Made by a program: the position numbers and the translations under genes
Shown here: one piece after another, positions 61,532 through 62,818 of the stretch
Layout: every line of letters begins with the position of its first letter
How positions within the stretch are numbered: position 1 is the stretch's first letter
Virus record (IMG/VR): IMGVR_UViG_3300038393_000804
Span: 83,598 to 147,597 of that record
Reading direction: 5' to 3' (one strand)
Source: a virus
Taxonomy: Duplodnaviria > Heunggongvirae > Uroviricota > Caudoviricetes
DNA: 64,000 bases
Notes under the pieces: generated by a model
Seen by the model: only the letters and a program-made list of their open reading frames with translations
What the model was told of the DNA's origin: nothing
The model's database searches: none

Positions 61532-62818
61532 ATGGCAAATTTAGATTTAACCGCAATGTTAGCAGGTCAATTAGTAGGTAAGCACTTCGGTCCACAACCA
61601 GCTGAGGCTTATGATAAACCAACCAATATCGTTGTTGCACGTAACGGGGTCTTCCGAGTGGTGAAGACTCCTGTTGCTTTATTCAAAGTAAAGCTTTCAG
61701 ATATCCCAGCGGACAAAGCAATTCCAGGTCTTGAATCAATGGAAGAAGGTCCAGAGTTATTGATTCCAAAGATTCCTTTGAAGTATCTAATCATGGTATT
61801 AACTTTCTATCGTGATGTTCATACGAAGGATAAGACAGAAGCCAGCGCATTGTTCTTCTGGAATCATGATAATGTGGAGCTGCCACCAAAGTATACAGAT
61901 GGCACAGACATCAAGGGCCTTATTGAAGATGGACAGTTGATTGTGTATTGTCCACAGCAAAAGAACTCTGGTTCATTATCTGAGTTCCATCAGGATGGGA
62001 TGGTGAATTATCTTCGTGAGAATTGCACACCATTATGTGAGACGCACAGCCACCATACGATGGGAGCGTTCTGGTCTGGTACAGATGATGCCAATGAAAA
62101 CATGACTCAGTTCTACGGAGTATGGGGCAACATCGACAAGGATGAACCAAACTTCTTATTCCGTTGGGTATGTGGCGGCACACGCGTAAACATTGACCCA
62201 GCTTTGCTGTTTGATATTCCTCAAGTAGAAATCAAGACACTGGTAACAACTACTGTACCAGTAGAAGGATTCGAACCAGTAGTCGAAGAAAAAGTAGAAC
62301 ACAAATCATTTAAAGGACCATGGCCTCGTGTTGAAGCTCCAGACGATTGGATGGGACAACACTCTCGTTCTTACGGAGGTTACAACTATCACGCAAAAAA
62401 GTCGGGGACAGGGACATCTCCCAGTTACGACAAGTGGGGGGACGAGTGGGACTACTATGGGTATGGGACATCTGGCGGCTATGGCTACCATGGCTCACCA
62501 GGGGGACGAGCGAACAAGGATGATATTGTGGCAGCTAATGCGAAAGCACAAGGCTTAGATTCTAAAAAAAAAGAATCACTAAGCGGGAGCAGCGCGAGCA
62601 AAAGCGCAAGCAGCGAGCCGAGAACAGAAGTCGAAATTTTTCTGGAAAAAAATCTGGGAGACGACACTAAATCAATTGGCGAAGTGGAAGAGACCGTTAA
62701 GGAAATCGTTCAAGAGCTGATTGACCTTGGGTACGATTACGTTGTGAGTGATACAATGACTGAGAACAGCGGTTATGGTCATCTTCATGGCGAACGTAAT
62801 GATTGGTTCTTAGATTAA
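61532..62818 (+). CDS. JAB/MPN (JAMM) metallopeptidase with a roughly 230-aa low-complexity C-terminal extension
   Basis: Perfect JAMM motif E-x(n)-HSHHTMGAFWSGTDD (HxHx7Sx2D); ATTGGAGGAATT RBS. Confidence 0.8.
   Translation: MANLDLTAMLAGQLVGKHFGPQPAEAYDKPTNIVVARNGVFRVVKTPVALFKVKLSDIPADKAIPGLESMEEGPELLIPKIPLKYLIMVLTFYRDVHTKDKTEASALFFWNHDNVELPPKYTDGTDIKGLIEDGQLIVYCPQQKNSGSLSEFHQDGMVNYLRENCTPLCETHSHHTMGAFWSGTDDANENMTQFYGVWGNIDKDEPNFLFRWVCGGTRVNIDPALLFDIPQVEIKTLVTTTVPVEGFEPVVEEKVEHKSFKGPWPRVEAPDDWMGQHSRSYGGYNYHAKKSGTGTSPSYDKWGDEWDYYGYGTSGGYGYHGSPGGRANKDDIVAANAKAQGLDSKKKESLSGSSASKSASSEPRTEVEIFLEKNLGDDTKSIGEVEETVKEIVQELIDLGYDYVVSDTMTENSGYGHLHGERNDWFLD

What the first reader, a model, noticed from the sequence alone, without database searches (positions are those of the whole stretch)
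61532..62818. JAMM peptidase with a long Gly/Tyr/Ser-rich C-terminal extension
The catalytic domain (about residues 150-215, around HSHHTMGAFWSGTDD) is followed by roughly 230 aa of low complexity (GGYNYHAKKSGTGTSPSYDKWGDEWDYYGYGTSGGYGYHGSPGG, a KKKESLSGSSASKSAS tract, and an acidic helical tail). Prokaryotic JABs of Ubl systems are usually compact. The disordered Tyr/Gly-rich extension could mediate condensate formation, substrate recruitment or virion association.
Basis: seen in the sequence. Interest (0 to 1): 0.55.

Follow-up and report, generated by a model that had tools for sequence, protein, structure and literature searches.

The report
Phage ubiquitin-like protease with tethered tail
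This gene encodes the trimming protease of a ubiquitin-like protein-tagging system carried by a giant Bacillus-type phage. Its unusual floppy, tyrosine-rich tail ends in a conserved docking-like module whose inclusion appears to be controlled by a slippery run of A's.

Summary
The ORF at 61532-62818 is real, intact and found unchanged on 7 contigs. It has an invariant JAMM site (E103, H172, H174, S182, D185) inside a confidently folded 280-residue core. It is the fifth gene of a six-gene phage operon (57318-63806). The operon encodes a polyubiquitin-like precursor (six Prok_Ub/PRTRC_C repeats ending AGTKG), two unknown proteins, a Cys-type E2, this JAB and a ThiF-type E1. This is a PRTRC / "6d"-type system. 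The JAB most likely cuts the poly-Ubl into monomers and reverses conjugates.

The extension is about 150 aa, not 230. It has three parts: a disordered Tyr/Gly-rich stretch (281-330), a Ser/Lys linker (331-362) and an acidic ~55-aa helical module (363-416). The module is under purifying selection at least as strong as the core (dN/dS 0.04-0.20) and occurs only in this family. There is no frameshift in the window.

The A9 run encoding KKK is the only homopolymer of 8 or more A or T in 64 kb, and close relatives keep it. In the KLEB27-3 lineage the run is A10 and the downstream module-like sequence is reachable only by a -1 slip, yet it evolves as coding sequence. The best reading is a flexible tether plus a docking module, with isoforms gated by slippage. 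What the tail binds is unknown.

The parts
57123..57152 (+). Promoter-like site upstream of the operon (weak consensus match)
   Evidence: CTGACT-18-TATATT, 9 of 12. Fewer such sites were found than in shuffles, so this is a lead only.
57318..58397 (+). Polyubiquitin-like precursor. It has six tandem ~57-aa Ubl repeats, each ending KAGTKG, plus an 11-aa C-terminal cap (ARFTKLVIKLA). It is the presumed substrate of the JAB.
   Evidence: repeat structure; invariant A-G-x-K-G. Pfam Prok_Ub 103.3 bits with 6 stretches. NCBIfam PRTRC_C 54.7 bits, above the cutoff of 45.95. Orthologs carry 2-6 repeats, always with a 1-17-aa cap.
58458..59009 (+). Small 183-aa protein of unknown function with a conserved C-terminal tip ...[SD]xD[FY]I
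   Evidence: the tip is conserved in all 8 loci examined. It has no family hit.
59015..60718 (+). 567-aa partner protein. It has an N-terminal domain (1-335), a ~110-residue single helix (337-445), a disordered segment and a small C-terminal alpha/beta domain. It ends in the acidic tip EEDLPF.
   Evidence: AF2 mean pLDDT 84.5; no PDB fold match with E<0.28; 11 of 25 homologs end in acidic residues + [LIVM]PF. It is present in all cassettes of this clade.
60731..61489 (+). E2-like conjugating enzyme (Prok-E2_D / PRTRC_B type) with invariant Cys151-Trp-Gly and a downstream invariant His207
   Evidence: alignment A3; orthologs in L003-L005 score 29-46 bits against Prok-E2_D (cutoff 25), and the L013 ortholog also carries it. 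The window copy alone scores nothing.
61532..62371 (+). JAB protein, folded core (residues 1-280). It comprises an N-terminal add-on, the JAMM/MPN+ domain and a conserved post-JAB beta region.
   Evidence: pLDDT 93-98. Foldseek hits to BilC (8tyx_B, E 3e-5), Rpn11, CSN5, PfJAMM1 and Cap3, covering about 150-165 residues. Pfam Prok-JAB 25.3 bits (cutoff 25); dN/dS 0.09-0.14.
61838..61840 (+). Codon of the catalytic Glu103
   Evidence: Invariant in 104 sequences.
62045..62086 (+). JAMM zinc-binding motif H172-S-H174-x7-S182-x2-D185
   Evidence: Read in the sequence. All four residues are invariant in 104 sequences.
62372..62521 (+). Tyr/Gly-rich disordered low-complexity stretch (residues 281-330; 9 Tyr and 13 Gly in 50 aa)
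   Evidence: pLDDT <50; composition statistics. Tyr positions 286, 309 and 311 are kept in 82-84% of homologs; family medians are Tyr 10.7% and Gly 14.9%, against 3.7% and 6.0% in the core; dN/dS 0.35-0.75 with many indels; not a DNA tandem repeat. GC3 0.60 against 0.38 in the core.
62522..62617 (+). Ser/Ala/Lys-rich variable linker (residues 331-362)
   Evidence: low occupancy, high entropy and pLDDT <50.
62564..62572 (+). A9 homopolymer encoding KKK (residues 345-347). It is a candidate slippage or recoding site at the junction before the C-terminal module.
   Evidence: in phase; the only A or T run of 8 or more in the 64-kb window, while Lys codons are only 44% AAA; a single A9 is kept in L010, L011 and L012; the run is A10 in four KLEB27-3-lineage assemblies, where the downstream coding sequence lies in the -1 frame.
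62618..62779 (+). Conserved acidic C-terminal module (residues 363-416, net charge -10). It has a short strand-like VEIF segment, then two helices around a G-Y-D motif.
   Evidence: present in about 92% of homologs, with G400/Y401 at 90% or more in A4; helices 382-398 and 402-412, pLDDT 67-87; dN/dS 0.04-0.20 and 80-98% aa identity among close relatives; found only in this JAB family among 1.84 billion representatives.
62780..62818 (+). Variable Gly/Tyr/His-rich C-terminal end (residues 417-428) and the stop codon
   Evidence: low occupancy and no conserved tip.
62889..63806 (+). ThiF-type E1 adenylating enzyme (305 aa) with a GxGGxGG motif, an invariant Cys211 and a Lys/Pro/Ala-rich basic tail
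   Evidence: Pfam ThiF 43.7 bits. PRTRC_ThiF 126.8 bits, below the cutoff of 144.75; alignment of 9 orthologs.
63791..63818 (+). Terminator-like hairpin (12-bp stem plus T-run) at the end of the operon

Best explanation
The gene encodes the JAMM/JAB metallopeptidase of a phage-borne ubiquitin-like conjugation operon of the PRTRC / Iyer-Aravind '6d' kind. The gene order is poly-Ubl, small protein, 567-aa protein, E2, JAB, E1.

Inferred by analogy with BilC, Cap3 and eukaryotic DUBs: the 280-residue core cuts the six-repeat poly-Ubl precursor after each terminal Gly (..AGTKG|) and removes the 11-aa cap. This releases monomers that the E1 (Cys211) and E2 (Cys151) can activate and conjugate. The core probably also reverses conjugates.

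The C-terminal extension is a clade-specific, three-part appendage:
- about 50 aa of Tyr/Gly-rich disordered chain;
- about 30 aa of Ser/Lys linker;
- an acidic ~55-aa helical module.

I propose that the disordered part is a flexible and possibly sticky tether, and that the module docks the protease onto a partner or assembly of the system. Which partner is not known.

An A9 run encoding KKK sits just upstream of the module and looks like a conserved slippage-prone site. In this window standard decoding gives the long, module-bearing form, and slippage would give a short form. In the KLEB27-3 lineage the run is A10, standard decoding gives the short form, and only a -1 slip or an added A reaches the downstream coding sequence. 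The system therefore appears to make two protease isoforms, one free and one anchored.

Shown here: the anatomy, the conservation, the selection patterns and the shifted arrangement in KLEB27-3.

Inferred: the cleavage specificity, the docking role and the actual slippage.
For: Peptidase and system:
- The JAMM residues are invariant.
- The fold matches BilC, Rpn11, CSN5, PfJAMM1 and Cap3.
- The adjacent poly-Ubl passes the Prok_Ub and PRTRC_C cutoffs, and its repeats end in an invariant AGxKG followed by a cap.
- The E2 has invariant Cys and His, and its orthologs pass Prok-E2_D.
- The E1 has an invariant Cys and a nucleotide-binding motif.
- The gene order Ubl-..-E2-DUB-E1 equals that of Bil, where the DUB pre-processes the Ubl (PMC10557695).
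- The operon matches type 6d of PMC1779556.
- The operon is bounded by a terminator-like hairpin, and the cassette is conserved in 3 phages, phage-plasmids and metagenomic contigs.

Tail:
- It is family-wide.
- AF2 predicts disorder for 281-361 and helices for 382-412.
- dN/dS is 0.04-0.20 for the module, 0.09-0.14 for the core and 0.35-0.75 for the low-complexity stretch.
- The module is exclusive to this family.
- Tyr enrichment is conserved, and it is not shared by the partner protein's disordered region.

Slippage:
- The run is the only homopolymer of 8 or more A or T in 64 kb, despite 56% AAG usage for Lys.
- A9 is kept in 3 relatives, one of them in another codon phase.
- In KLEB27-3, four independent assemblies have A10, and the 0 frame stops 3-5 codons later.
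- There the -1 frame stays open for 83-85 codons with pN/pS 0.17-0.30, a third-position bias and a 6-nt indel.
- That frame has no start codon of its own, and the other two frames are full of stops.
Against: - No biochemical data exist for any PRTRC/6d-type system.
- The window's JAB only just passes Pfam Prok-JAB (25.3 against 25) and fails the PRTRC_A cutoff (38.5 against 101.8).
- No docking partner was identified. The naturally module-less P0092 locus (L013) keeps every cassette gene, so there is no co-loss signal.
- The KLEB27-3 -1-frame extension is only weakly similar to the module (hhalign E 0.012, probability 3.5%; HMM E 0.16-4).
- The pBtic235 clade (L003-L005) has the module but no long A-run, so slippage is not universal in the family.
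- One A9 run per 64 kb is about what base composition predicts. The argument therefore rests on conservation across related sequences, which are not independent.
- The helical module has only moderate pLDDT (67-87).
Confidence: 0.55

Rival explanations
1. The Tyr/Gly-rich tail is mainly a self-associating 'sticker-and-spacer' region. It would concentrate the Ubl machinery in a condensate or hub, for example at replication or assembly sites. The C-terminal module would be secondary.
For: - Tyr (median 10.7%) and Gly (14.9%) enrichment is conserved across about 100 homologs while the sequence itself drifts.
- 74% of homologs have at least 30% G+Y in their best 40-aa window.
- Tyr is normally depleted in disordered regions, and it is only 1.3% in the partner protein's disordered region.
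Against: - The stretch is short (about 50 aa), with a median of one [GS]Y[GS] motif per tail.
- It is the least constrained part of the protein (dN/dS 0.35-0.75), whereas the module is the most constrained.
- Some members are poor in G and Y (minimum 15%).
- There are no experimental data.
Confidence: 0.2
2. The tail targets the protease to the virion or procapsid, so that it is packaged or acts on structural proteins during assembly.
For: - The neighbouring poly-Ubl ortholog in phage vB_BceM_WH1 (gp211) is labelled 'virion structural protein' by the depositors.
- Host Bil systems are known to tag phage tail proteins (own knowledge; the review-level literature appears).
Against: - The label is unverified and no paper was found.
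- The JAB itself is annotated as hypothetical in all records.
- In phage-plasmids the cassette sits beside replication genes (RepA, Pol III alpha), not structural genes.
Confidence: 0.1
3. The tail is an autoinhibitory or self-processed segment. Its Gly-Gly-containing chain would occupy or be cut by the active site and so regulate activity.
For: - The tail contains several GG and G-rich sites (YGG|Y, SGG|Y, PGG|R).
- The tether is long enough to fold back on the core.
- Eukaryotic DUBs are often regulated by appended segments (own knowledge).
Against: - The tail's GG sites do not resemble the Ubl end AGTKG and are not positionally conserved.
- Nothing in the analysis bears on a contact between the tail and the active site.
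- The module is not Ubl-like (hhalign probability 0.2%).
Confidence: 0.08
4. The extension is functionally neutral low-complexity sequence produced by replication slippage, and the A-run is an accident of Lys codons.
For: - The low-complexity stretch is rich in indels and evolves fast.
- Distant family members carry quite different C-terminal appendages, such as Cys-rich or acidic ones.
- One A9 per 64 kb is near the compositional expectation.
Against: - dN/dS for the module is 0.04-0.20.
- Tyr positions are conserved.
- There is no DNA tandem repeat.
- A9 is kept across relatives whose synonymous sites are near saturation, despite a preference for AAG.
- The out-of-frame coding sequence in KLEB27-3 is under purifying selection.
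Confidence: 0.05
5. The extension in this window is a separate ORF joined to the JAB by a frameshift or sequencing error at a homopolymer.
For: - Homopolymers are present: A9 at 62564, G6 at 62436 and A7 at 62646.
- The KLEB27-3 ortholog really is split at this site.
Against: - The identical 428-aa product is on 7 contigs.
- Homologs at 63-80% identity align across 95-100% of the length.
- The alternative frames terminate within 2-32 codons.
- The module has no start codon of its own.
Confidence: 0.01

Closest known systems
PRTRC system protein A (TIGR03735) and the JAB of Iyer-Burroughs-Aravind operon type 6d (PMC1779556)
   Same: - It is a JAMM peptidase with an N-terminal add-on.
- It is encoded next to a ThiF-type E1, a Cys-type E2 with a downstream His (Prok-E2_D / PRTRC_B) and a small Ubl ending in Gly (Prok_Ub / PRTRC_C).
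- It is carried on a mobile element.
- The best NCBIfam hits of the JAB, E1 and Ubl are the PRTRC models.
   Different: - It scores far below the PRTRC_A cutoff (38.5 against 101.8), and only the last 54 model positions match.
- The canonical protein is about 190 aa with no tail (phage ME3: 144 aa).
- Here the Ubl is a six-repeat polyprotein.
- The cassette carries two extra unknown proteins.
- No ParB-like gene was seen inside the operon.
- The host element is a Bacillus-type jumbo phage or phage-plasmid.
BilC, the JAB deubiquitinase of the BilABCD (ISG15-like) antiphage system (PDB 8tyx; PMC10557695)
   Same: - It is the best solved-structure match (Foldseek E 3e-5).
- The gene order is the same: Ubl, E2, DUB, E1.
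- BilC both pre-processes its Ubl to expose the C-terminal Gly and cleaves conjugates, which is the role proposed here.
   Different: - BilC is 162 aa, without N- or C-terminal appendages.
- The Bil E1 has inactive and active adenylation domains plus a Cys domain, whereas this E1 is a single 305-aa ThiF domain.
- No PADLOC defence model hits the JAB, E2 or Ubl.
- Bil is a host defence system, whereas this cassette is phage-encoded.
Cap3 of type II CBASS
   Same: It is a compact JAMM isopeptidase that reverses an E1/E2-mediated conjugation, and it is a fold match (9ild_A).
   Different: Cap3 works with a Cap2 E1-E2 fusion and a CD-NTase substrate rather than a Ubl. None of those is present here. 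It has no tail.
Rpn11 and CSN5 (eukaryotic MPN+ DUBs)
   Same: The catalytic fold and motif match. From own knowledge, both carry C-terminal helices that anchor the protease in a helical bundle of a larger complex, which is the closest precedent for 'MPN domain plus C-terminal helical docking element'.
   Different: Their helices follow the MPN domain directly, without a Tyr/Gly-rich disordered linker. There is no sequence similarity to the module, and no recoding site.
Recoding at A-runs: dnaX tau/gamma (A AAA AAG frameshift, or A9 transcriptional slippage in Thermus) and phage lambda G/GT (own knowledge)
   Same: A slippery A-run upstream of a C-terminal interaction domain yields two isoforms, with and without that domain. 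Related lineages place the domain in different frames relative to the run.
   Different: Slippage has not been demonstrated here. The evidence is comparative only. The proteins are unrelated.

Membership tests
JAMM/MPN+ metallopeptidase | Catalytic Glu plus an HxHx7Sx2D zinc site | tested here: met
   E103, H172, H174, S182 and D185 are present and invariant in 104 homologs.
JAMM/MPN+ metallopeptidase | MPN fold | tested here: met
   The AF2 core has pLDDT 93-98. Foldseek probability is 1.00 to BilC, Rpn11, CSN5, AMSH/Sst2, PfJAMM1 and Cap3, with TM 0.5-0.63 normalised on the target. Pfam Prok-JAB scores 25.3 against a cutoff of 25.
JAMM/MPN+ metallopeptidase | Zn-dependent (iso)peptidase activity on a Ubl C-terminus | not testable with these tools
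   This needs an enzyme assay with the poly-Ubl.
PRTRC system (ParB-related, ThiF-related cassette) | Protein A (JAB) above the TIGR03735 cutoff | tested here: not met
   38.5 bits against a cutoff of 101.8, and only model positions 137-190 match.
PRTRC system (ParB-related, ThiF-related cassette) | PRTRC ThiF protein above the TIGR03736 cutoff | tested here: not met
   126.8 bits against a cutoff of 144.75. It is the best hit by far, but below threshold.
PRTRC system (ParB-related, ThiF-related cassette) | Protein C (Ubl) above the TIGR03738 cutoff | tested here: met
   54.7 bits against a cutoff of 45.95 for the six-repeat protein.
PRTRC system (ParB-related, ThiF-related cassette) | Protein B (E2) above the TIGR03737 cutoff | tested here: not met
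   The window copy has no hit. Orthologs score 18-38 bits against a cutoff of 131, although three orthologs pass Pfam Prok-E2_D.
PRTRC system (ParB-related, ThiF-related cassette) | Associated ParB homolog and proteins D, E and F | tested here: inconclusive
   None of the six operon genes hits those models. The rest of the 64-kb window was not fully scanned.
Iyer et al. 2006 operon type 6d | Small Ubl with a conserved C-terminal Gly; an E2 with a conserved Cys and a downstream conserved His; an adjacent JAB and E1; an extra alpha-helical protein | tested here: met
   - The Ubl repeats end in an invariant G.
- E2 residues C151 and H207 are invariant in 6 sequences.
- The JAB and E1 are adjacent.
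- The helix-rich 567-aa protein is present.
Iyer et al. 2006 operon type 6d | JAB-N alpha+beta domain with a strictly conserved Arg and Trp | tested here: inconclusive
   An N-terminal alpha+beta add-on is modelled at residues 1-75. R42 is invariant in 6 sequences but is not among the positions conserved at 90% or more in 104 sequences. It was not aligned to the published JAB-N.
BilABCD (bacterial ISG15-like) system | Bil-type proteins recognised by defence-system models; an E1 with inactive and active adenylation domains plus a Cys domain | tested here: not met
   PADLOC gives no hit for the JAB, E2 or Ubl, and only weak Cap2-type hits for the E1. The E1 is a single 305-aa ThiF domain. Gene order and the DUB fold are shared.
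Type II CBASS Cap3 | Co-encoded Cap2 E1-E2 fusion and a CD-NTase | tested here: not met
   The E1 and E2 are separate genes, and there is no CD-NTase in the operon.
Programmed frameshift or transcriptional-slippage gene | A slippery homopolymer, a downstream frame that is coding, under selection and lacks its own start, and two products observed | tested here: inconclusive
   For the KLEB27-3 lineage the first three criteria are met. In the window the run is in frame and only its conservation is shown. The products were not observable with these tools.
Prion-like / FUS-type low-complexity domain | A long Tyr/Gly/Ser-rich disordered region with many [GS]Y[GS] motifs that drives phase separation | tested here: inconclusive
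   The composition fits. However, the region is only about 50 aa, with a median of 1 motif per tail. Phase behaviour is not testable here.

The most novel reading that the evidence does not exclude
A giant phage runs its own ubiquitin-like tagging system, fed by a polyubiquitin-like precursor. Its deubiquitinase would be made in two forms by programmed slippage at a poly-A run: a free form, and a form anchored through a Tyr-rich tether and a private docking module. That would let the phage tune where Ubl processing and removal happen, for example on replisome or SSB-partner proteins or on virion components. This would be the first recoding-controlled DUB and the first functional model for the long-unexplained PRTRC/6d cassettes.
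Probability: 0.22. Interest if true: 0.8.

Novelty: new variant of a known kind. Interest (0 to 1): 0.57.

Why it matters
PRTRC / 6d-type E1-E2-JAB-Ubl cassettes were predicted in 2006, and no experimental study of their function was found in the searchable literature. Here a complete version sits in cultivable Bacillus jumbo phages (KLEB27-3, WH1, Edson) and in pBtic235, the 235-kb phage-plasmid of the commercial B. thuringiensis israelensis strain. It carries a true polyubiquitin-like precursor. That makes the system directly testable.

The tail gives three handles:
- a module to use as bait for partners;
- a Tyr-rich linker to mutate;
- a poly-A site whose synonymous disruption should change the isoform ratio.

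If the slippage is real, it would add a DUB to the short list of proteins whose interaction domain is dosed by recoding. It would also show that phages, and not only their hosts, use ubiquitin-like conjugation.

Tried and rejected
1. **Frameshift or sequencing artefact in the window.** Rejected.
2. **C-module as a degenerate Ubl (beta-grasp) unit.** hhalign probability is 0.2%. Rejected.
3. **C-module in other protein architectures.**
   - A local HMM search of all six-frame ORFs found it only in JAB orthologs.
   - A profile search of 1.84 billion representatives found only this family. The extra hits were truncated gene calls starting at Met177, plus coiled-coil noise.
4. **Naming the 567-aa partner.** Pfam, NCBIfam, PHROGs and PADLOC give nothing. 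A confident AF2 model has no PDB fold match.
5. **Co-loss test for a docking partner.**
   - The module-less P0092 locus keeps all cassette genes. Its E1 is 100 aa longer, but the module has not moved there.
   - P0111 and P0114 sit in different contexts and were uninformative.
6. **Apparently module-less KLEB27-3.** It turned out to be frameshifted at the A-run, not truncated.
7. **Homology of the KLEB27-3 -1-frame extension to the module.** Only weak.
8. **A conserved alternative basic tail in the window's -1 frame.** It stays open for 26-37 codons in 4 relatives. This can be explained by zero-frame conservation, so it is not claimed.
9. **Literature.** There are no functional papers on PRTRC, KLEB27-3, WH1 or phage-encoded E1/E2/JAB systems.
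10. **Fold libraries and model coordinates.** The afdb50 fold library was unavailable. Model coordinates are not exposed, so contacts between the module and the core could not be inspected.
11. **Distant plasmid JABs (L007-L009).** These have N-terminal rather than C-terminal extensions, so the tail is clade-specific.
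Full report
**1. Observation**

The ORF 61532..62818 (+) is intact: 428 aa, an ATG start and a GGAGG ribosome-binding site 8-12 nt upstream. HSHHTMGAFWSGTDD occupies residues 172-186 and fits the JAMM signature HxHx7Sx2D. In an alignment of 104 homologs, E103, H172, H174, S182 and D185 are invariant.

The C-terminal region is compositionally extreme. Its best 50-aa window has 44% Gly+Tyr, the highest of 72 ORFs in the window, against a background of 10.3%. Binomial P is 9e-10, or about 2e-5 after correcting for all windows.

- AlphaFold2 with the 104-sequence alignment gives a single confident core for residues 1-280 (pLDDT 93-98).
- It gives disorder for 281-361 (pLDDT <50).
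- It gives two helices at 382-398 and 402-412 (pLDDT 67-87).
- The extension is therefore about 148 aa, of which about 80 aa are truly low-complexity.

**2. Not an artefact**

It is in phase and encodes KKK.
- Losing one A gives KKKNH*. Gaining one gives a 32-aa basic tail.
- The actual frame runs into a module conserved in relatives.
- The identical 428-aa protein is recorded on 7 contigs, and homologs at 63-80% identity align over 95-100% of the length.
- The Tyr/Gly stretch is not a DNA tandem repeat.

**3. What the gene belongs to**

The window is phage DNA. It carries a large terminase at 2686..5670, a sigma factor, and NAMPT with a PRPP-synthetase-like gene.

The JAB's relatives are in two groups:
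- Bacillus jumbo phages vB_BauM_KLEB27-3, vB_BceM_WH1 and Edson;
- 215-246-kb non-mobilizable plasmids that are phage-like, including pBtic235 of B. thuringiensis israelensis.

In all of them the same cassette recurs. Its members in the window are as follows.
- **57318..58397: poly-Ubl.** It has six tandem ~57-aa repeats, each ending KAGTKG, followed by an 11-aa cap. Pfam Prok_Ub scores 103 bits with six stretches, and NCBIfam PRTRC_C scores 54.7 against a cutoff of 45.95. Orthologs have 2-6 repeats and always a 1-17-aa cap. This is the layout of eukaryotic polyubiquitin genes.
- **58458..59009: a small protein** with a conserved ..D[FY]I end.
- **59015..60718: a 567-aa protein** with a ~110-residue single helix and no recognisable fold.
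- **60731..61489: an E2** with invariant Cys151-Trp-Gly and His207. Its orthologs pass Pfam Prok-E2_D.
- **The JAB.**
- **62889..63806: a ThiF-type E1** with GxGGxGG and an invariant Cys211.

A terminator-like hairpin closes the unit at 63791-63818.

This matches the 'fourth operon type (6d)' of Iyer, Burroughs and Aravind 2006 (PMC1779556), which NCBI models as PRTRC. By score, however, only the Ubl passes its PRTRC cutoff. The JAB (38.5 against 101.8) and the E1 (126.8 against 144.75) do not. It is therefore a divergent relative, not a curated member.

**4. What the core does (inferred)**

The nearest solved folds are all Ubl-specific JAMM enzymes: BilC (8tyx_B), Rpn11, CSN5, Sst2, archaeal JAMM1 and Cap3. 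They cover about 150-165 of the 280 core residues. The rest is a family-specific N-terminal add-on and a post-JAB beta region.

In the Bil system the gene order is the same (Ubl-E2-DUB-E1), and BilC both exposes the Ubl's C-terminal Gly and removes conjugates (PMC10557695).

With a capped six-unit precursor next door, the obvious job is to cut after each AGTKG. The core's dN/dS is 0.09-0.14.

**5. Anatomy and evolution of the tail**

The tail is present in essentially all ~100 full-length clusters of the family, with a median length of 141 aa beyond H277. It has three parts.
- **Residues 281-330 (Tyr/Gly stretch).**
  - It is full of indels but retains Tyr at positions 286, 309 and 311 in 82-84% of sequences.
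  - The family median is 10.7% Tyr and 14.9% Gly, against 3.7% and 6.0% in the core. The partner protein's disordered region has 1.3% Tyr.
  - dN/dS is 0.35-0.75.
- **Residues 331-362 (linker).** It is variable, with a KK(K) patch.
- **Residues 363-416 (C-terminal module).**
  - It is acidic (net charge -10), with the pattern t.VEI...(helix)..EL...GYD..I. It is present in about 92% of members.
  - Among close relatives it is 80-98% identical, with dN/dS 0.04-0.20. That is at least as constrained as the catalytic core.
  - It occurs nowhere else. Local six-frame HMM searches and a profile search of 1.84 billion representatives return only this family.
  - It is unrelated to the Ubl repeat.

Compact relatives exist: the phage ME3 PRTRC_A is 144 aa. 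Distant plasmid JABs carry N-terminal rather than C-terminal additions. The most distant family members carry other C-terminal appendages. The tail is therefore an innovation of this jumbo-phage and phage-plasmid clade.

**6. The homopolymer is probably functional**

KLEB27-3 at first looked module-less (356 aa). In fact its gene has an A10 run at the position aligned with the window's KKK. The zero frame stops three codons later. One extra A, or a -1 slip, opens a further 83 codons that end just before the E1 gene.

Four independent assemblies of that lineage (86-97% DNA identity) share this layout. In the -1 frame:
- pairwise pN/pS is 0.17-0.30;
- most differences fall at third positions;
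- the one indel is 6 nt;
- there is no start codon;
- the other two frames hold 3-20 stops.

That is the signature of a translated, recoded extension. Its similarity to the C-module is only suggestive (hhalign E 0.012, probability 3.5%, aligned at the equivalent helix-G-aromatic position).

In the window the A9 run is the only homopolymer of 8 or more A or T in 64 kb. This phage uses AAG for 56% of Lys codons. Three relatives, with dS of 0.7-1.9 from the window, each keep a single A9 11-18 codons upstream of the module, one of them in a different codon phase (KKN).

My inference is that the run is kept as a slippage-prone site that sets the ratio of a short form (core plus Tyr/Gly tail) to a long, module-bearing form. 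The two lineages have opposite defaults.

Caveats:
- The pBtic235 clade has the module without a long A-run.
- One A9 per 64 kb is near the compositional expectation.
- The relatives are not independent.
- No products have been observed.

**7. Mechanism proposed**

The protease core is linked by a flexible, Tyr-rich and possibly self-sticky tether to a private docking module. The module places the enzyme on a partner or assembly of the Ubl system, and slippage doses the anchored form against the free form.

Precedents from my own knowledge are the C-terminal helices of Rpn11 and CSN5 that anchor them in their complexes, the SSB architecture (folded domain, Gly-rich linker, acidic interaction end), and the dnaX tau/gamma and lambda G/GT recoding systems.

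I could not identify the partner. The naturally module-less P0092 locus still has every cassette gene.

**8. Rivals**

- A condensate-forming role for the Tyr/Gly stretch is compatible with its conserved composition. It is weakened by the stretch's short length and relaxed constraint.
- Virion targeting rests only on an unverified annotation of the WH1 poly-Ubl ortholog.
- Autoinhibition, neutral junk and artefact are less likely, for the reasons given in the rival entries.

**9. Novelty and score**

The protein is a new variant of a known kind. It is a divergent PRTRC/6d-type JAB with a clade-specific modular tail and a candidate recoding site, inside a phage-encoded Ubl system with a polyubiquitin-like precursor.

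No functional literature on such cassettes was found. The tail alone would be of moderate interest. The conserved module, the recoded ortholog and the experimentally tractable hosts raise it. Interest is 0.57.

Noticed in passing
window 57318-58397: The gene is a polyubiquitin-like precursor. It has six tandem Prok_Ub/PRTRC_C repeats, each ending KAGTKG, plus an 11-aa C-terminal cap. Orthologs have 2-6 repeats and always a 1-17-aa cap. The WH1 ortholog is labelled 'virion structural protein' by its depositors.
   Followed up: yes
window 59015-60718 (C-terminus at about 60698-60715): The 567-aa partner ends in EEDLPF. 11 of 25 homologs end in acidic residues + [LIVM]PF, the same tip as bacterial SSB C-termini (DDD[IL]PF, own knowledge). 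This hints that the system may dock on SSB-tail-binding replication or repair proteins. In phage-plasmids the cassette lies next to RepA and Pol III genes.
   Followed up: partly
window 58458-59009: The small cassette protein has a C-terminal tip ..[SD]xD[FY]I that is conserved in all 8 loci examined, although the rest of the protein varies in length (91-183 aa). It looks like a short docking peptide.
   Followed up: partly
L001 7032-7345 (KLEB27-3), and the same region in L016, L017 and L018: The annotated 293-bp 'intergenic gap' between the JAB and the ThiF gene is really an 83-85-codon coding extension of the JAB in the -1 frame. It is reached only through an A10 run. The public annotation of KLEB27-3 gp195 is therefore incomplete.
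   Followed up: yes
window 62372-62617: The Tyr/Gly stretch uses GC-richer synonymous codons than the rest of the gene (GC3 0.60 against 0.38; GGG/GGC, TAC, and AGC seven times). The -1 frame across 62573-62670 stays open and is Arg/Lys-rich in four relatives. Dual coding was considered but is not supported beyond what zero-frame conservation explains.
   Followed up: partly
window 63700-63803: The E1 carries a Lys/Pro/Ala-rich, histone-H1-like basic tail (KKTPAKKVPAKK). It is found only in the window's close relatives and is absent from KLEB27-3, WH1 and the plasmid orthologs.
   Followed up: partly
window 48449-51264: A PRPP-synthetase-like gene and a nicotinamide phosphoribosyltransferase (NAMPT) lie together. 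This is an NAD-salvage pair of the kind phages use against NAD-depleting defences (own knowledge).
   Followed up: no
window 44144-45574: A 476-aa protein combines sigma-70 regions 2 and 4 with additional C-terminal helix-turn-helix domains. It is an unusually long phage sigma factor.
   Followed up: no
window 25482-26727: Two long ORFs overlap almost completely on opposite strands: 25482..26672 (-) of 396 aa and 25507..26727 (+) of 406 aa. Which one is the real gene was not examined.
   Followed up: no
L010 4708-8300, L011 8629-11285 and L012 11028-13385 (downstream of the cassette in close relatives): There are long arrays of 10-14 consecutive small genes (76-127 aa each), tightly packed head to tail. 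In L011 and L012 they are followed by TerD and TerC genes. Whether the small genes are paralogs was not checked.
   Followed up: no
L013 5857-7071: In the module-less P0092 locus the ThiF/E1 is 404 aa, about 100 aa longer than in other cassettes. It has an insertion in the adenylation domain and a Lys/Glu-rich C-terminal extension.
   Followed up: partly
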